This document shows positions 25,251 through 58,905 of a stretch of 64,000 nt of DNA, piece by piece; position 1 is the first letter of the stretch, and the number at the start of each line of letters is the position of its first letter. The notes under the pieces are model-generated. The model ran no database searches, was not told the origin of the DNA, and saw only the letters and a program-made list of their open reading frames with translations. Position numbers and translations under genes: made by a program. This stretch comes from Mobula hypostoma (lineage: Eukaryota): contig NC_086097.1 in the NCBI RefSeq assembly GCF_963921235.1, positions 169,200,001 to 169,264,000 of the forward strand, read 5' to 3'.

Positions 25251-25254
25251 TTGA

Positions 25255-28985: not shown

Positions 28986-29320
28986 CTATATAGATGAGTG
29001 ACATAATACAACCATGGGAAGTGGAAGCTATTGTAAAAGCAAAAGACAGGGCATACAACAAAGCAAAAATTTGTGGGAAGATAGAGGATTGGGAAGTTTT
29101 TAAAAACCTACAGACAGCAGCTAATAATATCATTAGAAGGGAAAAGATGAAATATGAAAGCAAGCTAGCAAATAATATCAAAGTAGATAGTAGAAGTATG
29201 TTAAAAATAAAAGAGAAATGAGAGTGGATATAGGGCCGCAAGAAAATGAGGCAGGAGAAATAATAACGGGGAACAAAGAGAATCCCCCATCAGGAAGGTC
29301 TCAAAGCTCTACGCTTCTTT

Positions 29321-30616: not shown

Positions 30617-30910
30617 GCCCCACCTCCCCCTCGTACCCCATCTGTTACTCATTTTTATGCACACATTCTTTCTCTCACTCTCCTTTTTCTCCCTCTGTCC
30701 CTCTGAATATACCTCTTGCCCATCCTCTGGGTCACCCACCCCCCGTCTTTCTTCCCGGACCTCCTGTCCCATGATCCTCTCGTATCCCCCTTTTGCCTAT
30801 CACCTGTCCAGCTCTCGGCTCCATCCCTCCCCCTCCTGTCTTCTCCTATCATTTTGCATCTCCTCCTCCCCCTCCAGCTTTCAAATCCCTTACTCACTCT
30901 TCCTTCAGTT

Positions 30911-30946
30911 AGGCCTGACGAAGGGTCTCGGCCTGAAACGTCGACT
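30911..30946 (+). ncRNA. Minimal type I hammerhead ribozyme motif (stem I mismatch)
   Basis: AGGC-CTGACGA-AGG gtctcgg CCT-GAAA-CG-TC-GACT; CUGANGA and GAAA cores intact. Confidence 0.75.
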
Positions 30947-33900
30947 GCGCCTCTTCCTATAGATGCTGCTTGGCCTGCTGCGTTCACCAGCAACTTTGAT
31001 GTGTGTTGCTTGAATTTCCAGCATCTGCAGAATTCCTGTTGTTTGATGAACTAGATGATTATTTTGCATCAGTCTTCACTGTGGAAGATACTAGCAGTAT
31101 GCCTGATGTTGTAGTGTGTGAAGGAAGAGAAGTGGATGCAGTTACTGTAACAAGAGAGAAGGTGCTCAAAAAGCTGAAAGACCTAAAGCTATATATGTCA
31201 CCTGGACCAGATGAACTGCACCTAGGGTTTTGAAAGATGTAGTGTTAGAGATTGTGGAGGCATTAGAAATGATCTTTCAAAAATCATTGGACTCTGGCAG
31301 GGTGCCAAAGGACTGGAACATTTGCAACATTACTACACTCCTTAAGAAAGGAGGAAGGTAGCAGAAAGTAAATTATAGACCAGTTAGCCTGACCTCAGTG
31401 GTTGGGAAGATATTAAGAGTCAATTATTAAGGATGAGGTGATGGTGTACTTGGTGACACAGTCAGCATAGCTTCCTTCAGCGAAAATTCTGCCTGACAAA
31501 CCTGTTGGAATTCTTTGAGGAGAATTCCAAGATAAAGGCGATGCAGCAGATGTTGTATATTTGAACTTTCAGAAGGCCTTTGACAAGGTGCTACACATGA
31601 GGCTGCTTACCAAGTTAAGAGCCCATGGTATTACAGGAAAGTTACTAGCATGATTAGAATATTGGCTGACTGGTAGGAGGCAGCGAGTGGGAATAAAAGG
31701 ATCCTTCTCTGGTTGGCTCCACAGGGGTCTGTGTGGGGACCACTTCTATTTATGTTGTATATAAATCATTTAGATGATGGAATAGATGGCTTTGTTACCA
31801 AGTTTGCAGATGATACAAAGATTGGTGGAGGGGCAGGTAGTGTTGAGGAAACAGGTAGGATGAAGAAGGACTTAGACAGATTAGGAGACTGGGCAAGAAA
31901 GTGGCAAATGAAACATAATGTTGGAAAATGCATGGTCATGCACTTTGGTAGTAGAAATAAATGTGCAGACTATTTTCTAAACAGGGAGAAAGTCCAGGAA
32001 TCTGAGATGCAGAGAGACTTGAGAGTCCTTGTGGAGAACACCCTGAAGGTTAACTTGCGGGTTGAGTCAGTGGTGAGGAAGACAAATGCCATGTTAGCAT
32101 TCATTTCAAGAGGTCTAGAATACAAGAGCAAGGATGTGATGCTGAGGCTTTATAAGGCACTGGGTGAGGCCTCACATTGAGTACTGTGAAAATTTTGGGC
32201 CTCTCATCTTAGAAAAGATGTGCTGGCATTGGAGAGGATCCAGAGGAGGTCCACAAGAATGATTCCAGGAATGAAAGGGTTATTATACGAGGAACGTTTG
32301 ATGGCCCTGGGTCTGTACTCGCTGGAATTCAGAAGGATTGGGGGGTGGGAGGGGGATCTCATTGAAACGTTTTGAATGTTAAAAGTCCTAGACAGAGTAG
32401 ATGTGGAAAGGATGTTTCTTATGGTGGGAGAGTCTAGGACAAGAGGGCACAGCCTCAGGATAGAGGGGCTCCCTTTCAAAACAGAGATGCGGAGAAACTT
32501 CTTTAGCCAAAGTGTGGTGAATTTGCAGAATTTGTTGCCAAATGCAGCTGTGGAGGCCAGATCATTGGGTGTATTTAAGGCAGAGATTGATAAGTTCTTG
32601 ATTGGACATGGCATCAAAGCTTATGGGGAGAAGGCCAGGAACTGGGGTTGAGGAGGAGATAGGAAAAATGGACCAGCCATGATTGAATGGCAGAGCAGAC
32701 TTGGTGGACCAGGTGGCCTAATTCTGCTCCAATGTCTTATAGTCTTATAATCTGAGGGAAGTTGATGGGAATGTGGAGTGAATGGATGCCTGATGGGCCA
32801 AAGAGCCTGTTTATTTTCTGCATCTCTTTATGGCTCTATGAGGGTGTACATGATGACATAATTCTACATAACACTCCCTTATCAGAAATCTTGAGCTTTT
32901 TTCCCCCGAGGATACCCAAGTAAATCAGAACTCCAAAGTCAGATGAAATGGGACAAGGAGCATCAGAGTCTTATGTTTGGTTGGATTTAGATGAAAACAC
33001 AGGGTTTTTCCCAATCAGGGTGTAATGGGTGCCAGTGGTTTGAGGGATTGGCAGCCTTGTTAGTGCTTAGGACCTAAAAGGCAATTTTAGTCATCCTCAA
33101 CTAAGAATGTGGAAAACACTACAGGCCAAGCTGCAGATCTACTGAACATAGCCTTGGGAAGGTACACTGGATAGCACACTTTGAATCAATGAAAGTCAGT
33201 GCACAGTTTGTTAATTTCTCACTGCTGTATTCTTTGAAAGCACCCATTAATGTTAATTAGAATGTTTCAAGTTGCTTTCACAAAAGCAAGCACAAGGTAA
33301 ATGCTTATTTCCTCTGCCTTCAAGTTTCTGAATAGTCATGATCCCATGAACACCATCTCACTACAGTATGCCTCGTTTGCACTATTTATTTATATTTGTA
33401 TCCTAGAATAATTTTCATGTCCTGTACTGTACTACTGCCACAAAATGAAAAGAAACACAATGTCAGTGATAATAAATCTGATCTTAAGAGTCAGAGCAGG
33501 CCCTTCAGCCCATCTAAACACTTACTCTTATTCTTCACGGTCCCATCGACCCACACCTGGACCATAGCCCGCCATAACCCTTGCATCCAAACTTCTCGAG
33601 TGTTGCAGTCAAACCAACAAACACCACTTCCATTGGCAGCTCGTTCCACACTTGCATCAGCCTAAATGAAGAAGCTCCTCTCAGGTTCCTCTTAAATATT
33701 TCACCTTTCACACTTAACCTATGACCTCTAGTTCCAGTCTCACCCAACCTCAGTGGAAAAGGCCTGCTTCTGTTTACCCTGTCTACACTCAATTTTGGAG
33801 ACCTCTATCAAATCTCTGCACACTCTCCTACACTCCAGGGAACAAAGTCCTAACCCATTCAACCTTTCCCTATAATTCAGGACTTCAAGTACAGGCAACA

Positions 33901-34107
33901 TCCTTGTAAATGTTACTTGTACTCTTATCAATCTTATTGATACCTTTCCTGTAGGTAGGAGACCAGCACTGCACCCAATGCTCCAAATTTGCTTTCACCA
34001 ATGTCTTACACAACTTCAACATAACATTCCAACTCCTATACTCAATAACACACATCAAAGTTGCTGGTGAACGCAGCAGGCCAGGCAGCATCTCTAGGAA
34101 GAGGTAC

Positions 34108-34143
34108 AGTCGACGTTTCAGGCCGAGACCCTTCGTCAGGACT
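34108..34143 (-). ncRNA. Minimal type I hammerhead ribozyme motif
   Basis: AGTC-CTGACGA-AGG gtctcgg CCT-GAAA-CG-TC-GACT; full consensus. Confidence 0.82.
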
Positions 34144-34663
34144 AACTGAAGGAAGAGTGAGTAAGGGATTTGAAAGCTGGAGGGGGAGGGGGAGATGCAA
34201 AATGATAGGAGAAGACAGGAGGGGGAGGGATAGAGCCGAGAGCTGGACAGGTGATAGGCAAAAGGGGATACGAGAGGATCATAGGACAGGAGGTCCGGGA
34301 AGAAAGACGGGGGGGGGGGTGACCCAGAGGATGGGCAAGAGGTATATTCAGAGGGACAGAGGGAGAAAAAGGAGAGTGAGAGAAAGAATGTGTGCATAAA
34401 AATGAGTAACAGATGGGGTACGAGGGGGAGGTGGGGCCTAGCGGAAGTTAGAGAAGTCAATGTTCATGCCATCAGGTTGGAGGCTACCCAGACGGAATAT
34501 AAGGTGTTGTTCCTCCAACCTGAGTGTGGCTTCATCTTTACAGTAGAGGAGGACGTGGATAGACATGTCAGAATGGGAATGGGATGTGGAATTAAAATGT
34601 GTGGCCACTGGGAGATCCTGCTTTCTCCAGCTTTCAAATCCCTTACTCACTCTTCCTTCAGTT

Positions 34664-34699
34664 AGTCCTGACGAAGGGTCTCGGCCTGAAATGTCGACT
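34664..34699 (+). ncRNA. Hammerhead motif with C>T in stem III
   Basis: AGTCCTGACGAAGGGTCTCGGCCTGAAATGTCGACT. Confidence 0.7.
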
Positions 34700-35054
34700 G
34701 CACCTCTTCCTAGAGATGCTGCCTGGCCTGCTGCGTTCACCAGCAACTTTGATGTGTTTTGCTTGAATTTCCAGCATCTGCAGAATTCCTGTTGTTTCCT
34801 ATACTCAATACTTTGATTTATGATGACTAATGTGCCAAATCCCATCTACCTGTGACACCCCTATCAAGGAATTATGGATCTGAATTATTCAGTGTTCTAC
34901 CATTCATTGTGTAAATGCTACCCTGGTTTGTCCTCCCAAAGTGCAACACTTCACAATTGTCTGTATTATATTTTATCTGCCATTTCAAACCATTTTTCCA
35001 GCTAATACAGATTCTGAAAAAAAAACACACATTAGTATTGAAATGAGACCTTAC

Positions 35055-35150
35055 CTCCTCTTTACTATGTCCTTGCAGTATTCCAAACAAGCTAGAGCAT
35101 TTGAAGACTTGATAAAATGCTCTGTAGGTATCTCCTTTCCAATCCAACCA
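35055..35150 (-). CDS. CEP192: CEP192-like exon (96 nt)
   Basis: cctgacag|TGG...GAG|gtaagg; WLDWKGDTYRAFYQVFKCSSLFGILQGHSKEE, similar to GVDESGDVFRATYAAFRCSPISGLLESHG; phase 0 to 0. Confidence 0.88.
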
Positions 35151-35284
35151 CTGTCAGGTAGATGAAATAAGTGAACATTGTTAAAGAAAACTGACGCACA
35201 AAAAAGACTTTATCTCAAATCATTAATTCGATAGCAGTCCTCCAAATTAAGTGTATTTTATTTACAAAGGAAGTACAACAGCAC

Positions 35285-35922
35285 CATTACCACCTCAGGA
35301 GTTGGCAAAGATTGGGCATGACATCTAAAGCTCTGACAAACTTCTACAGATGTGTGGTGGAGAGTATATTGACCTGCTGCATCACAGCCAGGTATGGAAA
35401 CGCCAATGCCTTTGAACAGAAAATCCTACAAAAATAGGAGATATGGCCCAGTCCATCACAGATAATGCCCTCCCACCACTGAGCGCTGTTGCAGGAAAGC
35501 AGCATCCATCTTCAGAGACCCCGACCTCCCAGTAATGCTCTCTTCTTACTACTGCCACTTGAAAGGCACTGGAACCTCAGAACTCACACAACCAGGCTCA
35601 GGAACAGTTATTACCCCTCAAACATCAGGCTCCTGAACCAGAGGAAATAACTTCACTCAACTTCACTTGCCCCATCATTGAAATGTTCTCACACCCTATG
35701 GACTCATTTTCAAGGACTTTTCATCTCATGTTCTCAATATTTATTGCTCATTTATTATCACTACTACTAGTAGTTCTTTTTTCTTTTTGTATTTACAAAG
35801 TTTGGTTTTTGCACACTGGCTATCTGTACTGTTGGTGCAGTTTTCCATTGATTTTATTATGGTTATTGGATTTATTGAATATGCCTGCAAAAATGAAACT
35901 CAGGGTTGTATATGGTGACATA
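35285..35922 (+). mobile_element. Rex1/Babar-like LINE 3' end whose tail hosts the CR1 nest (resumes at 40268-40279 and 46470-46495)
   Basis: LTNFYRCVVESIL-type C-terminus; 3' UTR ...GTATATGGTGACATA continues as CATGTA and then CTTTGATAATAAA after the insertions. Confidence 0.75.
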
Positions 35923-38900
35923 GACAATAGGTGCAGGAGTAGGCCATTCAGCCCTTCGAGCCAACACCACCATTCACTGTGATCACAGCTGATCAACCAC
36001 AATCGGTTCCCTTTTCCTGCCTTCTCCCCATATCCCTTCACTCTGCTATCTTTAAGAGCTCTATCTAACTCTTTTTTGAAAGAATCCCGAGAATTGGCCT
36101 CCACTACCTTCTGAGGCAGAGCATTCCACAGAACAACCCTCTGTGTGAAAAAGTTTTTCCTCAACTCCGTTCTAAATTGTCTACCCCTTATTCTTAAACT
36201 GTGGCCTCTGGTTCTGGACTCCCCCAACATCGGGAACATATTTCCTTCCTCTAGTGTGTACAATCCCTCAATAATCTTATATGTTTCAATCAGATCCCCT
36301 CTCATCATTCTAAATTCTAGTGTATACAACCCCAGTCGCTCCAATCTTTCAACGTATGACAGTCCCGCCATCCCGGGAATTAACTTCGTGAACCTACGCT
36401 GCACTCCCTCAATAGCTAGAATGTCCTTCCTCAAATTTGGAGACCAAAACTGCACACAATATTTCAGTTATGGTCTCACCAGGGCCCTGTACAACTGCAG
36501 AAGAACCTCTTTGCTCCTATACTCAATTCCCCTTGCTATGAAGGCCAGCATGCCATTAGCTTTCTTCACTGCCTGCTGTACCTACATGCTTACTTTCAGT
36601 GACTGATGTACAAGGACACCGAGATCTCGTTGTACTTCCCCTTTTCCTAACCTGACACCATTCAGATAGTAATCTGCCTTCCTGTTCTTGCCACCAAAGT
36701 GAATAACCTCACAGTTATCCACATTAAACTGCATCTGCCATGCATCTGCCCACTGACCCAACCTGTCCAAGTCACCCTGCATTCTCATAACATCCTCCTC
36801 ACATTTCACACTGCCACCCAACTTTGTGTCATCTGCAAATTTTGCTGATGTTACTTTTAATCCCCTCATCTAAATCATTCATGTATATTGTAAATAGCTG
36901 CGGTCCCAGCACCGAGCCTTGCGGTACCCCACTAGTCACTGCCTGCCATTCTGAAAAGGACCCATTATCCCTACTCTTTGTTTCCTGTCTGCCAACCAAT
37001 TTTCTACCCATGTCAGTACCCTACCCCCAATACCATTTGCTCTAATTTTGCACACGAACCTCCTATGTGGGACCTTATCAAAGGCTTTTTGAAAGTCCAG
37101 GTACACTACATCCACTGGCTTTCCCATGTCCATTTTCATAGTCACATCCTCAAAAAATTCCAGAAGTTTAGTCAAGCATGACTTCCTCTTAGTAAATCCA
37201 TGCTGACTTGGACCTATCCTGCCACTGCTATCCAAATATGCCGCTATTATAACTTTTATAATTGATTCCAGCATCTTCCCCACCACTGATGTCAGACTAA
37301 CTGGTCTATAATTGCCTGCTTTCTCTCTCCCTCCTTTCTTTAAAAAGTGGGATAACATTAGCTACCCTCCAATCCGCAGGAACTGATCCTGAATCTGTAG
37401 AGCATTGGAAAATGATTACCAATGCGTCCACGATTTCTAGAGCCACCTCCTTAAGTAGCCTGGGATGCAGATCATCAGGCCCTGGGGATTTATCAACCTT
37501 CAGTCCCATCAGCTTACCCAACACCATTTTGTGCCTGATGCAAATTTCCTTCTGTTACCCTAGGTCCTCTGGCCACTATTACACCTGGGAGATTGTTTGT
37601 GTCTTCCCTAGTGAAGACACATCCAAAGTACCTGTTCAGCTCGTCTGCCATTTCCTTGTTCCACAGAAAACCATAGAAACCATAGAAACTACAGCACAGA
37701 AACAGGCCCTTTGGCCCTTCTTGGCTGTGCAGAACCATTTTCTGCCTAGTCCCACTGACCTGCACACGGACCATATCCCTCCATACACCTCCCATCCATG
37801 TATCTGTCCAATTTATTCTTAAATGTTAAAAAAGAACCCGCATTTACCACCTCGTCTGGCAGCTCATTCCATACTCCCACCACTCTCTGTGTGAAGAAGC
37901 CCCTCCTAATGTTCCCTTTAAACTTTTCCCCCCTCACCCTTAACCCATGTCCTCTGGTTTTTTTCTCCCCTTGCCTCAGTGGAAAAAGCCTGCTTGCATT
38001 CACTCTATCTATACCCATCATAATTTTATATACCTCTATCAAATCTCCCCTCATTCTTCTACGCTCCAGGGAATAAAGTCCTAACCTATTCAACCTTTCT
38101 CTGTAACTGAGTTTCTCAAGTCCCGGCAACATCCTTGTAAACCTTCTCTGCACTCTTTCAACCTTACTTATATCCTTCCTGTAATTTGGTGATCAAAACT
38201 GAACACAATACTCCAGATTCGGCCTCACCAATGCCTTATACAACCTCATCATAACATTCCAGCTCTTATACTCAATACTTTGATTAATAAAGGCCAATGT
38301 ACCAAAAGCTCTCTTTACGACCCTATCTACCTGTGACGACACTTTTAGGGAATTTTGTATCTGTATTTCCAGGTCCCTCTGTTCCACTGCACTCCTCAGT
38401 GCCTTACCATTAACCCTGTATGTTCTACGTTGGTTTGTCCTTCCAACGTGCATACCTCACACTTGTCAGTATTAAACTCCATCTGCCATTTTTCAGCCCA
38501 TTTTTCCAGCTGGTCCAAGTCCCTCTGCAGGCTCTGAGAACCTTCCTCACTGTCTACTACACCTCCAATCTTTGTATCATCAGCAAACTTGCTGATCCAA
38601 TTTACCACATTATCATCCAGATCATTGATATAGATGACAAATAACAATGGACCCAGCACTGATCCCTGTGGCACACCACTAGTCACAGGCCTCCACTCAG
38701 AGAAGCAATTCTCTACCACCACTCTCTGGCTTCTTCCATCGAGCCAATGTCTAATCCAATTTACCACCTCTCCATGTCTACCTAGCGACTGAATTTTCCT
38801 AACTAACCTCCCATGCGGGACCTTGTCAAAGGCCTTACTGAAGTCTATGTAGACAATATCCACTGCCTTCCCTTCATCCACTTTCCTGGTAACCTCCTCG

Positions 38901-40267
38901 AAAAACTCCAACAGATTGGTCAAACATGACCTACCACGCACAAAGCCATGTTGACTCTCCCTAATAAGCCCCTGTCTATCCAAATGCTTGTAAATTCTGT
39001 CTCTTAGTACTCCCTCCAATAACTTACCTACTACTGACGTTAAACTCACCGGCCTATAATTTCCCAGATTACTTTTCGATCCTTTTTTAAACAACGGAAC
39101 AACATGAGCCACTCTCCAATCCTCCGGCACTTCACCCGTAGACAGCGGCATTTTAAATATTTCTGCCAGGGCCCCCGCAATTTCAACACTAGTCTCCTTC
39201 AAGGTCCGAGGGAACACTCTGTCAGGTCTCGGGGATTTATCCACTTTAATTTTCCTCAAGACAGCAAGCACCTCCTCCTTTTCAATCTGTACAGTTTCCA
39301 TGGTCTCACTACTTGATTCCCTCAATTCCATAGATTTCATGCCAGCTTCCTTAGTAAATACAGATGCAAAAAACCTATTTAATAATAATTCCCCATAATA
39401 ATTTCAGCCGTTTCTGTCTTCAAGGGCCCAACTTTCGTCTTAACTAATTTTTTCCTCTTCACATACCTAAAGAAGCTTTTACTATCCTCCTTTATATTTT
39501 TGGCTAGCTTACCTTCGTACCTCATCTTTTCCCCCCGTATTGCCTTTTTAGTTCTCTTCTGTTGCTCCTTAAAAGTCTCCCAATTCTCTGGCTTCCCACT
39601 CATCCTTGCTATGTTATACTTCCTCTCTTATTTTTATACTGTCCTTAACTTCCCTTGTCATCCATGGTGGCCCCTTACTCCCCTTAGAACCTTTCTTCCT
39701 CTTTGGAATGAACTGATCCTGCATCTTCTGTATTATTCCCAGAAATACCTGCCATTGTTGTTCCACGGTCATCCCTGCTAGGGTATCTTTCCAGTCAATT
39801 TTTGCCAGCTCCTCCCTCATGTGTCCTTAGTCCCCTTTGTTCAACTGTAATACTGACACTTCCAATCTTCCCTTCTCCCTCTCAAATTGTAGATTAAAAC
39901 TTATCATATTATGGTCACTCCCTCCTAATGGCTCCTTTACCTCGAGTTCCTTTATCAAATCTGGCTCATTACACAACACTAAATCCAGAATTGCCTTCTC
40001 TCTGGTAGGCTCTAATACAAGCTGCTCTAAGAATCCATCTCTGAGGCATTCCACAAACTCCCTTTCTTGGGGTCCAGTACCAACCTGATTTTCCCAGTCT
40101 ACCTGCATGTTAAAATCCCCCAGAGCAACCATAGAATTATTTTTGCGACATGCCAATTTTAACTCTTGATTTAACTTGCACCCTATATCGAGGCTACTGT
40201 TTGGGGGCCTGTAGATAACTCCCATCAGGGTCTTTTTGCCCTTATAGTTTCTCAGTTCTATCCAAAG
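35923..40267 (-). mobile_element. CR1-A (endonuclease to 3' end), interrupted at 37666-39388
   Basis: [38 protein letters not shown] (35917-35922 and 40268-40273). Confidence 0.92.
37666..39388 (-). mobile_element. CR1-B nested in CR1-A
   Basis: 314-aa RT ORF 38396-39340; (TTTCTATGG)n tail; near-TSD TTCCACA/TTCCCCA. Confidence 0.92.
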
Positions 40268-40279
40268 GACATACATGTA

Positions 40280-46200: not shown

Positions 46201-46469
46201 TGCTCACCCTCCCCCTTTAGAATATTCAGGACCCGATCCGAGACATCCCGTACCCTGGCACCTGGGAGGCAACACACCATGCGGGTATCTCTGTCAAGCT
46301 CACAGAATCTCCTGTCTGTTTCCCTGACTATGGAATCCCCCACGACTACCGCATTTCTCTTCACCCTCCTTCTCTCCTGCACAACAGCGCCAGGCTCAGT
46401 GCCAGAGACCCGGTCACAGTGGGCGTCCCCCGTCAAGTCATCCCCCTCAACAGCATCCAGAACAAGATA
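40280..46469 (-). mobile_element. CR1-C, nearly full length (ORF1 esterase, endonuclease, RT), interrupted at 40906-43385
   Basis: ORF1 SGNH motifs VVGDSIVR and VGTND (46023-46436); ORF2 YLNARS, ITETW, GDFN, SDHN (44077-45777); RT 43379-43978; TSD ATGTA (40275-40279 and 46470-46474). Confidence 0.93.
40906..43385 (+). mobile_element. CR1-D nested antisense inside CR1-C
   Basis: 328-aa RT ORF 41619-42605; (TTTCTATG)n tail; 7-bp TSD TCTATTC (40899-40905 and 43386-43392). Confidence 0.93.
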
Positions 46470-47483
46470 ATGTACTTTGATAATAAATTTTGTTCAACTA
46501 TGTTCACTGAAGGAGACATAAATATAAAAGATAGAGGAACCATGTCTAAACAAAAAAAGAGATGTGGCAGTCCAGCAGGTAATAGACTTGAAGAATACTA
46601 TCCTGATGTTGAATAGGAAAAAAAAATGGCATGCATGGAAAACAAACTTGGGAATTAAGAATTAGACAAACTAAATGACTTTGACTTTGCCATGTAGTGG
46701 AAGAAAGAGAGGTCACTATTTCATGGGACTGCTCTGCAATCTCCATTTTTTGAACTGTCCTTTGAACTGGTTTTGCTCAGGGACAACTGGATTAAAGCTA
46801 TTAAAAGTAGACACAATGAGGCCCCTAGTGATAATCTGCTGATCTATAGATCATTTCTGAATAAAAAAGGTTGGAATCTGAGGGAGCTTTGGATGCAAAG
46901 CAGCAAGAACCCCAGAGACTAACAACCATAAGGAAGAACCCATCTGCCCATGCTAGAGACAGGGAGAAGGATCAATCCTTTGGCCAGCAGGAGATCCTCT
47001 ATTTCAGTGTTATAAATTGAAGTGATGATCTGAGCGAGTGTTGGTACAAAGGGAACAACAGACTTAAACTATTGGCCCGCTGTCAATATAGTTTATATTG
47101 ATACATAATGAGAGATAATAAAGTGCAAGTTTTTTTATTAATTAAGATTTATATAATGAATTGCCAAACTTGGGTCAGTTTGCTATAGGACAACAACTTA
47201 ATACCAACTCTTCAGGTAGATGTACTCCAAGCAGAGGGTGCAGATGTGCAAGAACCATCTTGCCAACATGCTACTACCCTTCCCAGTAAGTTATTTGCTT
47301 TAGTTCCACTAACAGAGAGAAAGACAATTTTTAGTAAAATTGCTCAGAGAAGAATAAACTTGTTTCAACCATTAACTGCATTACCATTTTCAAATTTCTA
47401 AACATTTCAAATTATGAAGCCTTGCATTTCAACAAAGTTCACAAACATTAGTTGTCTGAAAAACAATTACCAATATAGCTCAC

Positions 47484-47560
47484 CTTTACATATGGAGATT
47501 CAAATGATAAAAACCATTGTACAGTTTCTTCGCTATCATTTTCAATTTCCAGTAATGACT
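47484..47560 (-). CDS. CEP192: CEP192-like exon (77 nt)
   Basis: ctaacacag|AG...AAG|gtgagc; (E)SLLEIENDSEETVQWFLSFESPYVK, similar to ELENHGTTDVKWHLSSLAPPYVK; phase 1 to 0. Confidence 0.9.
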
Positions 47561-47959
47561 CTGTGTTAGGATCAACAAAAATATCATCAGTAAATTGGTC
47601 CTGGCTCAAGCATTTAAATTTAGGCCAATATTTTAGTCTCATACTTAGGGTCTGCATTTTTTTGGGGTTTCTCTTCTAGATCCCTCTCATGCTTCATTGA
47701 TGCTCACTTTACCCATGAGATGTCTCTGTTCTCACAACCCTTCTTTCAGAAAGCTGTTAACCAGACAAATTCACTTTCCAAACCCAAGATTAAACAAATT
47801 TCCTTCTTGAAGTGTACTCTGTAAATGCTTATCTCAAAAAGTTAACACTTTATTAATCCGCAAACAACAGGAATTCTGCAGACGCTGGAAATTCAAGCAA
47901 CATACATCAAAGTTGCTGGTGAACGCAGCAGGCCAAGCAGCATCTATAGGAAGAGGCGC

Positions 47960-47995
47960 AGTCGACGTTTCAGGCCGAGACCCTTCGTCAGGACT
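47960..47995 (-). ncRNA. Minimal type I hammerhead ribozyme motif
   Basis: Full consensus AGTCCTGACGAAGGGTCTCGGCCTGAAACGTCGACT. Confidence 0.82.
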
Positions 47996-50509
47996 AACTG
48001 AAGGAAGAGTGAGTAAGGGATTTGAAAGCTGGAGGGGGAGGGGGAGATGCAAAATGATAGGAGAAGACAGGAGGGGGAGAGATAGAGCCGAGAGCTGGAC
48101 AGGTGATAGGCAAAAGGGGATACGAGAGGATCATGGGACAGGAGGTCCGGGAAGAAAGACGGGGGGGGGGGTTGACCCAGAGGATGGGCAAGAGGTATAT
48201 TAGGAGGGACAGAGGGAGAAAAAGGAGAGTGAGAGAAAGAATGTGTGCATAAAAATGAGTAACAGATGGGGTACGAGGGGGAGGTGGGGCCTTAGCGGAA
48301 GTTAGAGAAGTCGATGTTCACGCCATCAGGTTGGAGGCTACCCAGACAGAATATAAGGTGTTGTTCCTCCAAACTGAGTGTGGCTTCATCTTTACAGTAG
48401 AGGGGGCCATGGATAGACATGTCAGAATGGGAATGGGATGTGGAATTAAAATGTGTGGCCACTGGGAGATCCTGCTTTCTCTGGCGGACAGAGCGTAGAT
48501 GTTCAGCAAAGCGGTCTCCCAGTCTGCGTCGGGTCTCACCAATATATAAAAGGCCACATCGGGAGCACCGGACGCAGTATATCACCCCAGTCGACTCACA
48601 GGTGAAGTGATGCCTCACCTGGAAGGACTGTTTGGGGCCCTGAATGGTGGTAAGGGAGGAAGTGTAAGGGCATGTGTAGCACTTGTTCCGCTTACACGGA
48701 TAAGTGCCAGGAGGGAGATCAGTGGGGAGGGATGGGGGGGACGAATGGACAAGGGAGTTGTGTAGGGAGCGATCCCTGCAGAATGCAGGGGGGGGGGAGG
48801 GAAAGATGTGCTTAGTGGTGGGATCCCGTTGGAGGTGGCGGAAGTTACGGAGAATAATATGTTGGACCCGGAGGCTGGTGGGGTGGTAGGTGAGGACCAG
48901 GGGAACCCTATTCCTAGTGGGGTGGTGGGAGGATGAAGTGAGAGCAGATGTACGTGAAATGGGGGAGATGCGTTTAAGAGCAGAGTTGATAGTGGAGGAA
49001 GGGAAGCCACTTTCTTTAAAAAATGAAGACATCTCCCTCGTCCTAGAATGAAAAGCCTCATCCTGAGAGCAGATGCGGCGGAGACGGAGGAATTGCGAGA
49101 AGGGGATGGCGTTTTTGCAAGAAACAGGGTAAGAAGAGGAATAGTCCAGATAGCTGTGAGAGTCAGTAGGCTTATAATAGACATCAGTGGATAAGCTGTC
49201 TCCAGAGACAGAGACAGAAAGATCTAGAAAGGGGAGGGAGGTGTCGGAAATGGACCAGGTAAACTTGAGGGCAGGGTGAAAGTTGGAGGCAAAGTTAATA
49301 AAGTTATTAAATTTATTAATAAAGTTAATAAATAATGACTCTCACAGCTATCGGGACTATTCGTCTTCTCACCCTGTCTCTTACAAAAACGCCATCCCCT
49401 TCTCGCAATTCCTCCGTCTCCGCCGCATCTGCTCTCAGGATGAGGCTTTTCATTCTAGGACGAGGGAGATGTCTTCATTTTTTAAAGAAAGGGGCTTCCC
49501 TTCCTCCACTATCAACTCTGCTCTTAAACGCATCTCCCCCATTTCACGTACATCTGCTCTCACTCCATCCTCCCACCACCCCACTAGGAATAGGGTTCCC
49601 CTGGTCCTCACCTACCACCCCACCAGCCTCCGGGTCCAACATATTATTCTCCGTAACTTCCGCCACCTCCAACGGGATCCCACCACTAAGCACATCTTTC
49701 CCTCCCCACCTCTCTCTGCATTCCGCAGGGATCGCTCCCTACACAACTCCCTTGTCCATTCGTCCCCCCCATCCCTCCCCACTGATCTCCCTCCTGGCAC
49801 TTATCCGTGTAAGCGGAACAAGAGCTACACATGCCCTTACACTTCCTCCCTTACCACCATTCAGGGCCCCAAACAGTCCTTCCAGGTGAGGCATCACTTC
49901 ACCTGTGAGTCGACTGGGGTGATATACTGCGTCCGGTGCTCCCAATGTGGCCTTTTATATATTGGTGAGACCCGACGCAGACTGGGAGACCGCTTTGCTG
50001 AACATCTACGCTCTGTCCGCCAGAGAAAGCAGGATCTCCCAGTGGCCACACATTTTAATTCCACATCCCATTCCCATTCTGACATGTCTATCCACGGCCT
50101 CCTCTACTGTAAAGATGAAGCCACACTCAGGTTGGAGGAACAACACCTTATATTCCGTCTGGGTAGCCTCCAACCTGATGGCATGAACATCGACTTCTCT
50201 AACTTCCGCTAAGGCCCCACCTCCCCCTCGTACCCCATCTGTTACTCATTTTTATGCACACATTCTTTCTCTCACTCTCCTTTTTCTCCCTCTGTCCCTC
50301 TGAATATACCTCTTGCCCATCCTCTGGGTCAACCCACCCCCCTTGTCTTTCTTCCCGGACCTCCTGTCCCATGATCCTCTCGTATCCCCTTTTGCCTATC
50401 ACCTGTCCAGCTCTTGGCTCCATCCCTCCCCCTCCTGTCTTCTCCTATCATTTTGCATCTCCCCCTCCCCCTCCAGCTTTCAAATCCCTTACTCACTCTT
50501 CCTTCAGTT

Positions 50510-50545
50510 AGTCCTGACGAAGGGTCTCGGCCTGAAACGTCGACT
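50510..50545 (+). ncRNA. Minimal type I hammerhead ribozyme motif
   Basis: Full consensus AGTCCTGACGAAGGGTCTCGGCCTGAAACGTCGACT. Confidence 0.82.
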
Positions 50546-50943
50546 GCGCCTCTTCCTATAGATGCTGCTTGGCCTGCTGCGTTCACCAGCAACTTTGATG
50601 TATGTTACTTTATTAATCCACCTACAGAAATTGACATCCTATCTCTACTATCTTCTATCTCCAAAGTCTCAACAATTTGCAGATCACAAACTGACCCAAA
50701 CCTCCGTGAAACATAGTTATAATCTTGTCAGACCATATGGCAATGGAAATCTCAGACCTTTATGAATTTATCTGTGTGGATATCCTGATTTAACAAAAAC
50801 AACTTTCTAAAATTCAGATTTAAATTCAAGTGATGGGATGGTGCATAAAGAGATAATTTGCAGTCTAGTTATCTACAGACATAATGGAAATCCAAAAAAT
50901 ATATACCCTCCCTACCCCCTAATCATTATTCTCCCTACTTTAC

Positions 50944-51139
50944 CTGAACTAGACCCTGGTGATATTGAGGGAAAATTTATAGTTTGGTTCTTTATCTTCA
51001 ATTTTGTAGGTGTAGACTTTAATTGGATCTTTGCTGTATGACGGTAAGGTGTCCAAGGTTCCATGCACACTGCTGCTTCTGGGCTTTGTACAGTTGCACA
51101 ATTGTCAATCATGGCACCTTGAATTTCGACCTTTATTAA
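50944..51139 (-). CDS. CEP192: CEP192-like exon (196 nt)
   Basis: attttcag|TTA...TCA G|gtaaag; LIKVEIQG...KLKIKNQTINFPSISPGSSS; phase 0 to 1 joins both neighbours. Confidence 0.88.
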
Positions 51140-51256
51140 CTGAAAATAAAATAAAAATGAAATTAAGAATTAGGTAGCATTTAATACTGCAATACAAGAT
51201 GTTTATGTCTTCAAAATCCTTCTGCAATCTGAAAAGCCATATTTAATTTACAGAAA

Positions 51257-52882
51257 CACACATCACAGTTGCTGGTGAACACAGCAGGCCAGGCAGCATC
51301 TCTAGGAAGAGGTACAGTCGACGTTTCAGGCCGGGACCCTTCATCAGGACGAACTGAAGAAAGAGCTAGTCAGAGATTTAAAGGTGGGAGGGGGAGGGGG
51401 AAATCCAAAATGATAGGAGAAGACTGGAGGGGGAGGGATGGAGCCAAGAGCTGGACAGGTGATTGGCAAAAAAGATATGAGAGGATCACGGGACAGGAGG
51501 CCCAGGGAGAAGGAAAAGGGGGAGGGAGGGGAAAAAACCCAGAGGATGGGCAAGGGGTATAGTCAAAGGGACAGAGGGAGAAAAAGGAGAATGAGAGAAA
51601 GAATGTGTGTATATAAATAACGGATGGGGTACGAGGGGGAGGTGGGGCATTAGCGGAAGTTAGAGAAGTCAATGTTCATGCCATCAGGTTGGAGGCCACC
51701 CAGATGGAATATAAGGTGTTGTTCCTCCAAACTGAGTGTGGCTTCATCTTTACAGTAGAGGGGGCCATGGATAGACATGTCAGAATGGGAATGGGATGTG
51801 GAATTAAAATGTGTGGCCACTGGGAGATCCTGCTTTCTCTGGCGGACAGAGCGTAGGTGTTCAGCAAAATGATCTCCCAGTCTGCGTCGGATCTCGCCAA
51901 CATATAGAAGGCCACATCGGGAGCACCGGACACAGTATATCACCCCAGCCGACTCACAGGTGAAGTGTCGCCTCACCTGGAAGGACTGTCTGGGGCCCTG
52001 AAAGGTGGTGAGGAAGGAAGTGTAAGGGCATGTGTAGCACCTGTTCCTCTTACAAGGATAAGTGCCAGGAGGGAGATCAGTGGGGAGGGATGGGGGGAAT
52101 GGATGGACAAGGGAGTCATGTAGGGAGCGATCCCTGTGGAAAGCAGAAAGGTGGGGGGGGGGGAGGGAAAGATGTGCTTGGTGGTGGGATTCCGTTGGAG
52201 GTGGCGGAAGTTACGGAGAATAATATGTTGGACCCGGAGGCTGGTGGGGTGGTAGGTGAGGACCAGGGGAACCCTATTCCTAATGGGGTGGCAGGAGGAT
52301 GGAGTGAGAGCAGATGTTCATGAAATGGGGGAGATGCGTTTGAGAGCAGAGTTGATGGTGGAGGAAGGGAAGCCCCTTTCTTTAAAAAAGGAGGACATCT
52401 CCCTCGTCCTGGAATGAAAAGCCTCATCCTGAGAGCAGATGCGGCGGAGACGGAGGAATTGCGAGAAGGGGATGGCATTTTTGCAAGAGACTGGGTGAGA
52501 AGAGGAATAGTCCAGATAGCTGTGATAGTCAGTAGGCTTATAGTAGACATCAGCAGATAAGCTGTCTCCAGAGATAGAGACAGAAAGATCTAGAAAGGGG
52601 AGGGAGGTGTCGGAAATGGACCAGGTAAACTTGAGGACAGGGTGAAAGTTGGAGGCAAAGTTAATAAAGTCAACAAGCTCAGCATGCATGCAGGAAGCAG
52701 CGCCAATGCAGTCGTCGATGTAGTGAAGGAAAAGTGCAGGACAGATATCAGAATAGGTGCAGAACATAGATTGTTCTACCTCTTCCTAAAGATGCTGCCT
52801 GGCCTGCTGCGTTCACCAGCAACCTTGATGCGTGTTGCTTGAATTTCCAGCATCTGCAGAATTCCTCATGTTTGCGTTTTTG
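51257..52882 (-). mobile_element. Penelope-like element copy 4 (different subfamily, inverted short pseudo-LTR at right end)
   Basis: HYIDD, LPFLDL, GVIY...LYVGE; plus-strand terminal piece from about 52777; 11-bp TSD ATTTACAGAAA (51246-51256 and 52883-52893). Confidence 0.93.
51316..51351 (-). ncRNA. Hammerhead motif, CUGAUGA variant
   Basis: CGTC-CTGATGA-AGG gtcccgg CCT-GAAA-CG-TC-GACT. Confidence 0.78.
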
Positions 52883-53754
52883 ATTTACAGAAATGTCATT
52901 CTTGATACAAATTGGCAATATTGCAAACAGCAATAACCAACCCAGACTCAGAACAGCACAAAAGCATATAATGTGTTCTGCAGAGTCTTTACTTCTAAAT
53001 TAAATATAAAATCTGTGTTACTCTATTTTTATCCCACATTTCACAATTCTATACATTACACTCCATTTTCCTACCATTTCACTAAGAATAATACTTACAG
53101 AAATCTCTCTCAAATCTACTGCTTCGTTATCTTTTCTGCATGAAAAAAAAGGATATATCGCAATCTGCAGTATTTAGCATTCTTGTTTCCTGGGTGATTT
53201 CATTTGCCACTGAATTGAGAAGCTTTTCTTTACGATGTCGAATTTCAAAATTCATTAAAACATTTTCTAACCTCTTGACCTCTACTCCACAAAAAAATTA
53301 CTAACAGTATTCACAACCATCCCATCAACTCTCTCACCTTACATAGCTTCACTGCTCCCAATTTTATCTGACATTACCACATATCCAATTATATTCTCCT
53401 TCCAACTTCCCTTTTCATGGATAAAGTTCAAGATCACCTACAACTGCAATTTCAAACCTTTTACTAATCACCTTTTGATCCCATTTTCAATACCTTTCTA
53501 AATATTTGTTCAATCACATCCTTGATTCTAATTTTGATGGCATTGTTCAGTTAAACAAAATTGGTTGAAAGCTAATTGCATTTGTAGGCAAAAATACCCC
53601 AACGTATTTCATCCATGTTTAATTAGCTAAAACCAAGTTAAACAAAAGAAGGTGGTTTTAGGATAAGTGACCAAAATTTGCTTGATTGTTTTAAAGAGAT
53701 TCTTAAGGGATAGAAAGACACAGGAAAGGCAATACTTCACCTGCAAGTATCCTA

Positions 53755-54135
53755 AGAATATAGAACAGTGCAGTACAAGAACAGATACTTCTCCACCAGA
53801 GTCAAAAAATAAAATCTAGCCAACCCCATCTGCCTAGATACGGGATATACCCTTCTATTCCCTGCCTGTCGATGAGCCTGTCTGCCTCTTCTACTTCCCC
53901 AATAGTGTGCTCCAGGCAATGATCAATGCCTCTCATAATTTTATAAACTTCTATCAGATCACCCATCAGTTTCTGATATTGCAGAGAATACAATCCAAAT
54001 TTGCTCAACCTCCCAGAGCTAATAATCTCCAATCCAGGCAACATCTTGATTAACCATGCATTTCTAATACAATTGAAATAAAGTAATATGTAGCCCTTTG
54101 TAAATATGAGGACCAAATGCATACAAACATATTAC
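53755..54135 (-). mobile_element. Degraded CR1 3' fragment
   Basis: GLYSL...GDLIEVYKIMRGID motif. Confidence 0.75.
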
Positions 54136-54303
54136 CCAAAAGGAATCGCTGCATCATTAAGGTTCTCATCAAATCTGCTTTAATTGGCTGATCAAATTGC
54201 TAACTTTAACCGGAACAGACACCTGTCTAGAGTAAAAAAGTTTTTTACAAAACCCAATCCCCATTAAAAACATTGTTAACAGCCAAATTAAATTATTTCC
54301 TAC

Positions 54304-54403
54304 CTCTTCCGTGTTGTCACAGTGCACATAAAGATGTCCTGTTCGTGAGACAGATGTTTTAGCAATGAGAGGTTTTAGACACACAAGAATTAACATGTGG
54401 CTC
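54304..54403 (-). CDS. CEP192: CEP192-like exon (100 nt)
   Basis: ttctatcag|G...GAG|gtagga; SHMLILVCLKPLIAKTSVSRTGHLYVHCDNTEE, similar to SKLQILV...SGLIYIHCDD; phase 2 to 0. Confidence 0.88.
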
Positions 54404-55552
54404 CTGATAGAAAAATAAAGTTTATTTTCCACTGTGACAAATCAAAGGATTTTCTAGATTTATATATTTTTGACAATCTTAAGTAATGGAACATCAAATA
54501 ACTGCTTTCAATGTACATATAATGTAGCAACAGGAAACAATGAATAACATCCTTAAACATCATTTTACCTTTTGTATAAATGACCCAAAAAAAATCTGCT
54601 CACAGTACATGCTTAATTCTCAAAATAAAAGCTCCCGCAATGGAAGCAGCCCACTGCATTATAGCTTCCATAGTAACTACAAAATAAAATTCTGAGGAAA
54701 ATTGACTCTGGTTCACTTATCGACAACTTAAAGTTTCAGGTAAAATTTACAGACGATGGGGACTGTGCAATTGGTTTATTATCACGTGCAAGATGAAGTG
54801 AAAACCTTTTGCTTACATGCCATCCAGACAGATCAAACACAAGTACTTTGAGGCAGTACATAAGGAACAACAACAACATCATAATACATAATATAGTGTT
54901 ACAGCTACAGACAAAGTGAAGTACAGATAGACAAATGAGACGCAGGAGCCATAACAAGGTAGACTGGTGCGTTAATAGGTGCTGAAACTAACTCTACTGT
55001 AATTCAGGGACAAACTTTTTAAAAAACAAACATCCAGATGAACTCAAAGGGTTGGGTAGCACTGGTGGGAGGAAAAGTAGTTGACATTTCAGGTTGAAAA
55101 CCTGCAAAAAATCTGATGCAGCTGGTACAGGGTTTTGGGCTGAAACTTCAACAATTTCTTTTCTCTCTCAAATGCTGTTCATCGACCTGCTAAATTTCTC
55201 AAGATTCCAGTACCTGCAGTCTTTTGGGTCTCCAAATGTTTTAATCCAGTGGTTAAAGACAAAATCTATTTCTCACTTGAATTGTTAGGTTTTTTGACAG
55301 GAATAACTCAAGTGTTGGACAAAGACTGAATGGTAGCCTTCAGAAAGTAGAGAAGTTTTCAAAGCAGAGGGAAAAATAAATTTCAAGATTTTAAAGTTTC
55401 AGGTTATGTATTTGGCAATTTAAAAAATAATTTTGTAATTGCCTTCTGCATACAATTTAAACAAGTTGATGCTAAAGAATGCAAAAATATAATTACAATA
55501 CTCAGTCAAGGCTACAGGTTGCTGTGAACAAAGTCAAGTGAGTAAATCAATT

Positions 55553-56728
55553 AACACACATAAAAGTTGCTGGTGAATGCAGCAGGCCAGGCAGCATCTC
55601 TAGGAGGAGGTACAGTCAACGTTTCGGGCCGAGACCCTTCGTCAGGACTAACTGAAGGACGAGTGAGTAAGGGATTTGAAAGTTGGAGGGGGAGGGGGAG
55701 ATCCAAAATGATAGGAGAAGACAGGAGGGGGAGGGATAGAGCCAAGAGCTGGACAGGTGATAGGCAAAAGGGGATACAAGAGGATCATGGGACAGGAGGT
55801 CCGGGAAGAAAGACAAGGTGGGGGGGGACCCAGAGGATGGGCAAGGGGTATATTCAGAGGGACAGAGGGAGAAAAAGGAGAGTGAGAGAAAGAATGTGTG
55901 TATAAAAATAAGTAACAGATGGGGTACGAGGGGGAGGTGGGGCATTAGCGGAAGTTAGAGAAGTCGATGTTCATGCCATCAGGTTGGAGGCTACCCAGAC
56001 GGAATATAAGGTGTTGTTCCTCCAACCTGAGTGTGGCTTCATCTTTACAGTAGTGTAGGCCGTGGATAGTCATGTCAGAATGGGAATGGGATGTAGAATT
56101 AAAATGTGTGGCCACTGGGAGATCCTGCTTCCTCTGGCGGACAGAGCGTAGGTGTTCAGCAAAGCGGTCTCCCAGTCTGTGTCGGGTCTCGCCAATATAT
56201 AAAAGGCCACATCGGGAGCACCGGACGCAGTATATCACCCCAGCCGACTCACAGGTGAAGTGTTGCCTCACCTGGAAGGACTGTTTGGGGCCTGAATGGT
56301 GGTAAGGGAGGAAGTGTAAGGGCATGTGTAGCACTTGTTCCGCTTACACGGATAAGTGCCAGGAGGGAGATCAGTGGGGAGGGATGGGGGGGACAAATGG
56401 ACAAGGGAGTCGCGTGGGGAGCGATCCCTGTGGAATGCAGAGAGGAGAGAGTGGGGAGGGAAAGATGCGCTTAGTGGTGGGATCCCGTTGGAGATGGCGG
56501 AAGTTACGGAGAATAATATGTTGGACCCGGAGGCTGGTGGGGTGGTAGGTGAGGACCAGGGGAACCCTATTCCTACTCCATCCGCCCGCCACTCCACTCC
56601 ACTCCAAGGGTCTCGGCCTGAAACGTCGACTGCACCTCTTCCTAGAGATGCTGCCTGGCCTGCTGCGTTCACCAGCAACTTTTATGTGTGTTGCTTGAAT
56701 TTCCAGCATCTGCAGAATTCCTGTTGTT
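55553..56728 (-). mobile_element. Penelope-like element copy 5 (inverted short pseudo-LTR at right end)
   Basis: GIY-YIG ORF 55945-56334; filler (ACTCC)n at the junction; imperfect 14-bp TSD TGAGTAAAYCAAYT (55539-55552 and 56729-56742). Confidence 0.92.
55614..55649 (-). ncRNA. Hammerhead motif variant (GUU triplet)
   Basis: AGTC-CTGACGA-AGGGTCTCGGCCC-GAAA-CG-TT-GACT. Confidence 0.75.
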
Positions 56729-57209
56729 TGAGTAAACCAACTGATGGAAGAACAGGAACCAAACACTGGCCCAAATTGTGAGATAGAAAAAGGAGTGAGG
56801 TAATGAACATTTACTCATACTAGGGGCAACTCATAACACCTTCCAGTGGCTGTGATCACATAAATGGCACAGAGAGAAAAGGGCAAACTTCCATCCCTTG
56901 AGGATATTGGTGAAATGAAAATTCAGCAGTTTCAGGAGTTGCATATTCTTTTTGTTTCCCGGTGTCATAGCTAGATTGGAATTAATTTCTCAACATCTTT
57001 AATTCTCATTTTAGGAATATATTATACATATGCCTTTTCATTAACAACAATCTACTGAACTACTGCTGGAAATATGGGAAGCAGTTAGCAAAAGAACATG
57101 TAGATACTATGGGGTGGGGTGAAGGGAAGGAGAATCATCAATACATTAAATTAGAGAGATAAGCCTTTGAAGATGCATTTAATTGTTGCATAAATGAGCT
57201 TTTACCTAC

Positions 57210-57327
57210 TCTGGATCAAGAACTCCATGCTGGGGTGTCACTGTTAATGAGTGTGCTGGCCAGGAAAGTTCAAAAGACAAAGATCGAGTGGAATGGTTTA
57301 TGATCTGCATTCTCTCTGCAAAACCAT
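57210..57327 (-). CDS. CEP192: CEP192-like exon (118 nt)
   Basis: ttattatag|AT...GA|gtaggt; GFAERMQIINHSTRSLSFELSWPAHSLTVTPQHGVLDP(E), similar to FELCWPAHCLTVTPQHG. Confidence 0.93.
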
Positions 57328-58574: not shown

Positions 58575-58753
58575 CCACTGATGGTATCGTAAGAATTAAA
58601 TGCTTAGGCCGCACTGTCCATGACTTTGGTTTCAGTAACTGGTTTTGTACTTTATTTGAAGTATGCAAAAATAATGGAAAGCTTTGTAGTTCACTCATTG
58701 CACGAAAATCCAACGTGGAATTGGCCGGATCCCTTTCTGAGGTTCCCAGCACA
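58575..58753 (-). CDS. CEP192: CEP192-like exon (179 nt)
   Basis: attgtag|T...GTG G|gtgagt; ends SWTVRPKHLILTIPSV, similar to PWTVLPEHLILVAPS. Confidence 0.88.
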
Positions 58754-58905
58754 CTACAATAAAATTACAATCAGATCACTTACCAAATAGTTTCAGTTAC
58801 ATCAAAATATTCTTCAGATGAACATTGAATTTAAATTAACAAATGCATGATTAACCATTATTCTAATTTTAAATTTTGAATTGTTTCTTCAAATTCTGCA
58901 GATAC

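What the first reader, a model, noticed from the sequence alone, without database searches (positions are those of the whole stretch)
30911..55649. Seven minimal hammerhead ribozyme motifs carried by young Penelope-like elements inside CEP192 introns
Seen: a 36-nt motif AGTC-CTGANGA-AGG..CCT-GAAA-CG-TH-GACT at 30911(+), 34108(-), 34664(+), 47960(-), 50510(+), 51316(-) and 55614(-), plus a 5'-clipped one near 56606(+). The CUGANGA and GAAA boxes are invariant while the N position, loop II and H position vary. Established: Penelope-like pseudo-LTRs carry minimal type I hammerheads with a palindromic ACGU stem III that is thought to cleave as a dimer. The motif class is known; this family may be uncharacterised.
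Basis: partly seen in the sequence, partly recalled or inferred. Interest (0 to 1): 0.7.

Follow-up and report, generated by a model that had tools for sequence, protein, structure and literature searches.

The report
Penelope jumping-gene ribozymes in ray introns
These seven tiny RNA motifs ride on five recent insertions of a very abundant Penelope-type jumping gene inside a duplicated CEP192-like gene; such predicted self-cutting motifs are already known from these elements, and the intronic copies are likely inert passengers.

Summary
Confirmed, but ordinary. All seven 36-nt motifs and the clipped eighth are present, though only 3 of 7 match the stated pattern fully. They are minimal type I hammerhead motifs in the pseudo-LTR of one young Penelope-like family (3.5-kb unit, 1016-aa RT plus GIY-YIG ORF), with 45,476 exact matches genome-wide. 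They come from five insertions: four head-to-head pairs with target-site duplications and one single. The host is a diverged partial tandem duplicate of CEP192, not CEP192 itself. Core invariance among young copies is not selection (2/459 vs 24/2640 flank changes, p=0.41); older subfamilies do show ribozyme-like constraint. The intronic copies are predicted inert: the monomer folds as an inactive rod and 3 of 4 sense copies follow their own antisense arm. Copies were made from RNA not cut, or re-joined, at the ribozyme: 94% run through the cut site, and 5' ends pile up at the ribozyme's front edge instead. 55 of 58 pairs have one tailed and one untailed arm from one source. The class and architecture are published; this scan noted the same family and 5'-end pile-up on other DNA of this genome.

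The parts
29282..31045 (+). Insertion 1: single 5'-truncated Penelope-like copy (RT thumb, GIY-YIG, pseudo-LTR, tail) inside an old CR1-like LINE; no target-site duplication, about 6-nt target loss inferred
30911..30946 (+). Minimal hammerhead motif with a helix I mismatch; antisense to the host gene
34047..34797 (.). Insertion 2: head-to-head pair, untailed arm 34047-34627(-) and tailed arm 34625-34797(+), 14-bp target-site duplication
34108..34143 (-). Intact minimal hammerhead motif, sense to the host gene; predicted paired with its antisense arm (35 of 36 nt)
34664..34699 (+). Motif with C15.2>U, palindrome lost; antisense to the host gene
47861..50610 (.). Insertion 3: head-to-head pair, tailed arm 47861-49304(-) and untailed arm 49333-50610(+), 13-bp target-site duplication
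47960..47995 (-). Intact motif, sense to the host gene; covered by a 1.26-kb antisense arm with 25 differences
50510..50545 (+). Intact motif, antisense to the host gene; predicted cut between 50541 and 50542
51252..52874 (.). Insertion 4: head-to-head pair, untailed arm 51252-52779(-) and tailed stub 52779-52874(+) that lacks the motif, 11-bp target-site duplication; oldest of the five (91% to a full-length copy)
51316..51351 (-). Motif with terminal helix I mismatch, U at N7 and a loop II change; sense to the host gene; not covered by its partner arm
55544..56731 (.). Insertion 5: head-to-head pair, untailed arm 55544-56575(-) and tailed stub 56606-56731(+), 8-bp target-site duplication
55614..55649 (-). 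Motif with G10.1-C11.1 and U at H17; sense to the host gene; 24 of 36 nt predicted paired long-range
56606..56631 (+). 5'-clipped motif lacking the CUGANG box
3562..59060 (-). Host gene: CEP192-like partial duplicate (481 aa, 12 exons). Exons flanking the insertions: 57209-57327, 54304-54403, 50944-51139, 47484-47560, 35055-35150, 28132-28251

Best explanation
The seven motifs are minimal hammerhead motifs carried in the pseudo-LTR of five 5'-truncated insertions of a young, very high-copy Penelope-like retrotransposon, and inside these introns they are likely inert passengers. Shown: the family has a 3.5-kb unit with one RT plus GIY-YIG ORF; the motif lies in the 5' UTR, with its cut site 138 nt before the ATG; copies end at two 3' points about 35 nt apart, about 66 and 101 nt past the cut site; four of the five insertions are head-to-head arm pairs flanked by one target-site duplication. 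Inferred, following the in vitro work on the anole element: the element's protein cuts both DNA strands about 13-15 nt apart and starts reverse transcription at the two internal sites, one on each side of the break, using RNA from one source, and the two truncated cDNAs are joined head to head. Because copying starts 3' of the ribozyme, any copy that holds the motif came from RNA that was uncut or re-joined there. The template RNA likely often begins at the ribozyme's front edge. If the ribozyme cuts, it likely does so only in transcripts of full-length partial tandems, where two same-strand motifs can pair through ACGU, probably with protein help.
For: Full-length copies with two motifs 3513-3517 nt apart: 5 of 13 loci fetched. 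Pfam RVT_1 and GIY-YIG on the 1016-aa ORF, both below cut-off; 437 relatives. 45,476 exact motif matches, reversed control 0. 55 of 58 head-to-head pairs have one tailed and one untailed arm (p=1e-13); 52 of 58 have a duplication of 8 bp or more, 39 of them 13-15 bp; the 3 exceptions have none. Arms agree at diagnostic sites (53 of 55 and 49 of 51, about 27 expected) and share 14 rare variants, about 36 times the permuted mean. 35,872 of 38,221 youngest copies continue through the cut site. 5' ends: 23 in the 9 nt at the front edge (3.5% per nt) against 0.34% per nt inside the motif (p=7e-9) and 1.4% per nt upstream (p=0.001). No post-insertion constraint on the core. Monomer folds as a rod that ties up the core (-10.0 kcal/mol); the double-hammerhead fold scores -9.5 against -20 for two rods and -28.3 for the best dimer. 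One contig of run X2 joins four host exons, including across the intron that holds insertion 5. Literature: PMC4209133, PMC11167929, PMC8557442, PMC3846280.
Against: No cleavage, transcript start or priming was measured; all mechanism is read from DNA. A small excess of 5' ends at the cut site is not excluded: 6 ends in 5 nt, 1.3% per nt against 0.34% (p=0.024); 4 of the 6 are fold-back junctions at a palindromic site next to the search anchor, and the unselected tracts show 1 of 68. Folding energies ignore tertiary contacts and protein help. Shared variants between arms could also come from fold-back self-priming or gene conversion. The spliced contig comes from one run whose RNA status is a guess and whose individual may lack the insertion. 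The 58 pairs include loci chosen by ORF or anchor match. The motif at 51316 is not covered by its partner arm.
Confidence: 0.8

Rival explanations
1. The ribozyme cuts tandem transcripts and the unit RNA is re-joined into a circle; copies read through the re-joined site, so the intact site in most copies does not mean the RNA was never cut.
For: In 4 of 5 partial tandems the two pseudo-LTR copies differ at only 1-2 of about 390 sites, against 2.2% mean between loci. One copy spans about two units (L031). Core fixed while N7, loop II and 11.1 vary in older subfamilies. Model proposed in PMC4209133.
Against: A circle predicts no pile-up of 5' ends at the front edge. L036's two repeats differ at 9 sites, including subfamily-diagnostic ones. 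A linear read-through from a tandem source with matching repeats gives the same pattern. In the anole element, cleavage was not needed for insertion and no reads ended at the cut site (PMC11167929).
Confidence: 0.3
2. Intronic copies are live ribozymes: same-strand motifs in the host pre-mRNA pair in cis and cut it, lowering or shaping expression of the CEP192-like gene and of many other genes.
For: Four motifs are sense to the host gene; three lie 4.3 and 3.4 kb apart, close to the natural 3.5-kb spacing. Two are intact. Tens of thousands of intact copies exist.
Against: 3 of 4 sense copies are transcribed after their own antisense arm. Two of the three closely spaced copies carry changes. 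Dimers of such motifs cut poorly in vitro (PMC4209133). Spliced host RNA exists. No constraint after insertion.
Confidence: 0.07
3. In this family the motif is kept mainly as a promoter, RNA 5'-end or protein-binding element, and cleavage is vestigial.
For: 5' ends peak at an initiator-like sequence at the motif's front edge (the initiator consensus is recalled). An older subfamily with A6C in the core amplified: 12 of 59 older copies and 2,792 exact matches. A second block 3' of the motif is about as conserved. Naiad elements thrive without the motif (PMC8557442).
Against: Positions that vary between subfamilies are those a hammerhead tolerates: N7 U versus C with G8 kept (25 vs 4, p=1e-4), loop II, and 11.1 C/U opposite G. 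A6C is a natural active variant (PMC7151607, abstract). The anole motif cuts with protein, and core mutants abolish it.
Confidence: 0.2

Closest known systems
Minimal hammerheads (min-HHR) in pseudo-LTRs of metazoan Penelope-like elements, including fish Xena, Poseidon and Neptune (Cervera & De la Pena 2014, PMC4209133; read: parts 1-2 of 4 and a term search of 2 supplement files)
   Same: Type I, no true helix III, palindromic 15.2-16.2, unpaired base before helix II, short helix I, mostly single dispersed copies, some close pairs on opposite strands.
   Different: At least 45,476 exact copies here against about 4,000 (coelacanth) and 9,000 (Xenopus) reported there; high sequence uniformity (young burst); helix II only 4 bp, closed mostly by G-U. 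No shark or skate term was found in the 2 supplement files searched; one file was not searched.
PAc, Poseidon element of Anolis carolinensis (Frangieh et al. 2024, PMC11167929; read: parts 1-2 of 4 and passages)
   Same: Motif upstream of two internal reverse-transcription start sites that define a 30-40-nt tail; both DNA strands cut; uncut RNA is the dominant substrate.
   Different: Here the motif and both inferred start sites lie wholly in the 5' UTR, whereas in PAc they overlap the ORF. This ORF has the Cys-rich linker that the Penelope/Poseidon clade lacks. No activity was tested here.
Head-to-head insertion units of endonuclease-positive PLEs with a one-sided tail (Craig et al. 2021, PMC8557442; Arkhipova et al. 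2013, PMC3846280; passages read)
   Same: 5' truncation, partial tandems, inverted 5'-truncated partner, tail at one end, target-site duplication around the whole unit.
   Different: Those passages describe the tail as 'often' or 'optionally' one-sided and suggest self-priming; here it is counted (55 of 58), with 13-15-bp duplications and arms from one source.
Non-LTR retrozymes (PMC7229834, listing only; bioRxiv 10.64898/2026.07.22.740005, part 1 of 5 and passages)
   Same: Type I hammerhead of PLE kinship, found in vertebrates including one cartilaginous fish sampled.
   Different: The window copies are truncated pieces of a coding element, not short non-coding tandem arrays.

Membership tests
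min-HHR of PLEs | Core boxes CUGANGA, GAAA and UH | tested here: met
   All 7 keep both boxes; H is C in 6 and U in 1
min-HHR of PLEs | Type I with short helix I | tested here: met
   4-bp helix I intact in 5 of 7; mismatched in 30911 and 51316
min-HHR of PLEs | Unpaired base after position 9 and G10.1-C11.1 pair | tested here: met
   Bulged A. Position 11.1 is U in 38 and C in 13 of 51 young copies, C in 34 and U in 17 of 59 older copies, opposite G
min-HHR of PLEs | Palindromic 15.1-16.1, no helix III in the monomer | tested here: met
   ACGU in 6 of 7
min-HHR of PLEs | Located in the pseudo-LTR of a PLE | tested here: met
   Two motifs flank the ORF in L031, L032, L034, L035, L036
min-HHR of PLEs | Compensatory changes in the helices | tested here: inconclusive
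   Helix columns are nearly invariant across subfamilies; only a one-sided G-C/G-U change was seen. No distant loci were obtained
min-HHR of PLEs | Self-cleavage as a dimer or with protein help | not testable with these tools
   Only folding energies, which do not favour the active dimer
Endonuclease-positive Penelope-like element | Single ORF with RT and C-terminal GIY-YIG | tested here: met
   1016 aa; RVT_1 E=3.6e-5 and GIY-YIG E=1e-3, both under Pfam cut-off; relatives carry the same Pfam families
Endonuclease-positive Penelope-like element | Partial tandems, inverted 5'-truncated partner, 30-40-nt tail | tested here: met
Endonuclease-positive Penelope-like element | RT groups with telomerase-related PLE RTs in a tree | not tested
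   No named reference proteins were obtained; no solved relative by sequence
Neptune/Nematis clades | CX2-5CxxC zinc-finger-like linker between RT and endonuclease | tested here: met
   C-x4-C-x2-C before the GIY motif in the L034 ORF; definition from PMC8557442
Neptune/Nematis clades | Phylogenetic placement in Neptune rather than Nematis | not tested
   No tree was built; 'Neptune-like' rests on the linker and on vertebrate host range
Non-LTR retrozyme | Short non-coding tandem units, each with a hammerhead | tested here: not met
   Window copies are ORF-bearing or inverted fragments

The most novel reading that the evidence does not exclude
This genome's roughly 10^5 young copies record the unsolved Penelope integration step: a protein dimer primes both ends of a 13-15-nt staggered break, one at each of the two internal start sites, on RNA from one source that begins at the ribozyme's front edge and is not cut there, so the ribozyme would not be the maker of transposition templates and each inverted arm would silence the motif it delivers into host introns.
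Probability: 0.3. Interest if true: 0.55.

Novelty: new member of a known kind. Interest (0 to 1): 0.27.

Why it matters
The motif class, its place in pseudo-LTRs and the insertion architecture are published, so the finding itself is an expected by-product of a large recent Penelope burst in a cartilaginous fish. Its value is as material. The role of these ribozymes in Penelope elements is still open (PMC8557442), and a family with tens of thousands of near-identical copies allows counts that bear on it: where copies start and stop, how the two arms relate, and whether sense-strand intronic motifs are selected against. The older A6C subfamily offers a natural comparison.

Tried and rejected
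Rfam scan of the window: no hammerhead match, one chance lncRNA hit. A splice-site model missed most exons; they were mapped with the database protein instead. Metagenome scan for related loci: 126 pattern hits, none confirmed, so no cross-species covariation test. PDB sequence search: no relative. Sequencing runs: no holder on record as RNA and all are contigs, so RNA ends, strand and cleavage could not be read; 2 of 4 runs and 3 of 4 did not cover the exons, which is no evidence. Search for editing scars between arms: differences were mostly C>T and G>A, with no A>G excess. Considered a splice-acceptor origin for the 5'-end peak: the upstream tract looks like an acceptor, but junctions show genomic or fold-back sequence and no shared upstream exon; not favoured, not excluded. 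The paper on dimer cleavage of PLE hammerheads (Lunse et al., PMC5785218) is not held; it is known here only from its citation in PMC6765202. Paper searches for this family in rays or sharks listed nothing relevant, but were loose and do not cover Repbase/Dfam or subscription journals. A genome-wide count at the front edge was not obtained; that result rests on 96 copies from the first 6.3 Mb of contig C1 plus the tracts.
Full report
Observation. All seven motifs and the clipped eighth are at the stated coordinates. Three are identical (34108-, 47960-, 50510+); the other four carry one to three changes. A structural descriptor finds 4 hits in the window and none in 20 shuffles, and 32 in 1.064 Mb of genome against none in the reversed control. 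Rfam does not recognise the motif.

What carries them. Each motif sits at the 3' end of a repeat that also encodes a GIY-YIG domain. A genome search with that ORF scored 95 of 247,019 candidates, all 98-100% identical. Of 13 long loci fetched, 5 hold a full ORF flanked by two motifs 3513-3517 nt apart. The ORF is 1016 aa with weak RVT_1 and GIY-YIG hits, 437 relatives and a C-x4-C-x2-C linker, which PMC8557442 gives as the mark of Neptune and Nematis. No tree was built. The predicted cut site lies 138 nt before the ATG. An exact 34-nt pattern has 45,476 matches in the 3.48-Gb genome, about 0.8 expected per 64 kb against 3 in this window. Family-related sequence covers about 7% of the sampled tracts.

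Five insertions. The window copies are 91-99% identical to a full-length copy. Four are head-to-head pairs with duplications of 14, 13, 11 and 8 bp; one is single, with no duplication. Across the window, tracts and fetched loci (six overlapping loci dropped), 55 of 58 pairs have one arm ending at the long 3' point and one at the short point about 35 nt earlier; 52 of 58 have a duplication of 8 bp or more, mostly 13-15; the three exceptions have none. Arm lengths correlate (rho 0.63). Arms agree at diagnostic sites (46 of 54, 53 of 55, 49 of 51; 25-28 expected) and share 14 rare variants in 15,041 aligned bases, about 36 times the permuted mean. The inverted unit with a one-sided tail is published (PMC8557442, PMC3846280; passages), and PMC11167929 ties the tail to two internal start sites of reverse transcription and reports cutting of both strands. 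Priming of both break ends from one source is my inference; fold-back self-priming and gene conversion remain possible.

Host gene. Pfam finds Cep192 domains 7 and 8 on the minus strand. The one database hit, 481 aa and identical over the exon, is named by its source 'centrosomal protein of 192 kDa-like [Mobula hypostoma]'. Its 12 exons span 3562-59060. Homologous exons at 47-82% amino-acid identity lie 26-78 kb beyond the window on the same strand, so the window gene is a diverged partial duplicate. One 1647-nt contig of run X2 holds four exons in order and joins 57209 to 54403, across insertion 5; run X1 supports one other junction. RNA status is a guess and the individual may differ.

Structure. 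The monomer's best fold pairs the core with the ACGUC segment into a rod, with helix II as GGGU/GCCU after a bulged A; it is no more stable than shuffles (z -0.37). The double-hammerhead fold scores -9.5 kcal/mol, against -20 for two rods and -28.3 for the best two-strand fold. These energies omit tertiary contacts, but fit the low activity reported for such dimers (PMC4209133) and the need for protein in the anole element.

Selection. After dropping 11 locally duplicated copies (121 to 110), young copies show 2 changes in 459 core bases against 24 in 2640 flank bases (p=0.41); no constraint after insertion is visible. Older copies show 36 of 528 against 396 of 2915 (p=6e-6), and 216 of 716 in the adjacent linker. 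N7 is U far more often than G8 is A (25 vs 4, p=1e-4), unlike the symmetric decay at the H17 CpG (19 vs 17). So variation at H is neutral CpG decay, while N7 and 11.1 vary between source lineages as a hammerhead allows. Caveats: copies were found by similarity, and a block 3' of the motif is about as conserved. No two-sided compensatory change was seen.

Is the template cut? Copying starts about 66 and 101 nt 3' of the cut site, so cut RNA could give only stubs without the motif. Genome-wide, 35,872 of 38,221 youngest copies (93.9%) continue across the 9 nt spanning the site, which caps any footprint at about 6%. In 95 anchored copies (96 found, one false end dropped), 23 ends fall in the 9 nt at the front edge, 6 in the 20 nt inside the motif and 6 within 2 nt of the cut site. 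The last is a weak excess (p=0.024) but confounded, and only 1 of 68 young ends in unselected tracts falls there. The front-edge peak was a lead from earlier notes and is reproduced here. It suggests an RNA that starts there; internal pseudo-LTR promoters are known for Drosophila Penelope (PMC2377424, passages). Near-identical direct repeats in 4 of 5 partial tandems keep the circle model alive.

Effect on the host. Four motifs are sense to the gene. Three follow an antisense arm that covers all or most of the motif: 35 and 24 of 36 nt are predicted paired long-range in insertions 2 and 5, and insertion 3 has a 1.26-kb arm but was not folded. The fourth carries three changes. Host pre-mRNA cleavage is unlikely but untested.

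Verdict. A new member of a known kind. My paper searches listed no description of this family in rays, but they do not cover repeat databases or most subscription journals, and the bioRxiv supplement listing the sampled cartilaginous fish could not be seen. Interest 0.27.

Noticed in passing
window 3562-59060 (-) and G000:C1, 26-78 kb beyond the window end: A diverged partial tandem duplicate of the CEP192 3' half (481 aa, conserved exon structure, 47-82% identical exons) lies downstream of a second exon set; it is spliced in at least one run. It could be a lineage-specific centrosomal paralog.
   Followed up: partly
older copies, e.g. tract L074-L083 near 12779 (-); genome-wide pattern: An older subfamily of the same element has A6C in the hammerhead core (12 of 59 older copies; 2,792 exact matches). 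A6C is a described natural variant that favours Mn2+ (PMC7151607, abstract).
   Followed up: partly
   Followed up: yes
window 35918-46422: Dense nest of CR1-like LINE copies, including a 594-aa endonuclease frame at 44077-45861 (-) and RT fragments, in one intron of the host gene.
   Followed up: no
window about 8000-10230 (+): Decayed reading frames that resemble a BEL/Pao-type LTR retrotransposon pol/integrase region (label from recall; not scanned).
   Followed up: no
window 49305-49332 and 56576-56605: Short non-element fillers at the head-to-head junctions (an AT-rich repeat and a repeated pentamer), suggesting untemplated or slipped synthesis when arms are joined.
   Followed up: no
L034 about 7243-7325; window 30961-31045: The region holding the two 3' end points folds as a stem-loop and is conserved across old subfamilies about as well as the ribozyme; a candidate protein-binding and priming element.
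   Followed up: partly
tract L119-L123, about 14000-25000: A short element stub has been amplified at least 12 times inside a local tandem repeat; its motif has a one-base core deletion.
   Followed up: no
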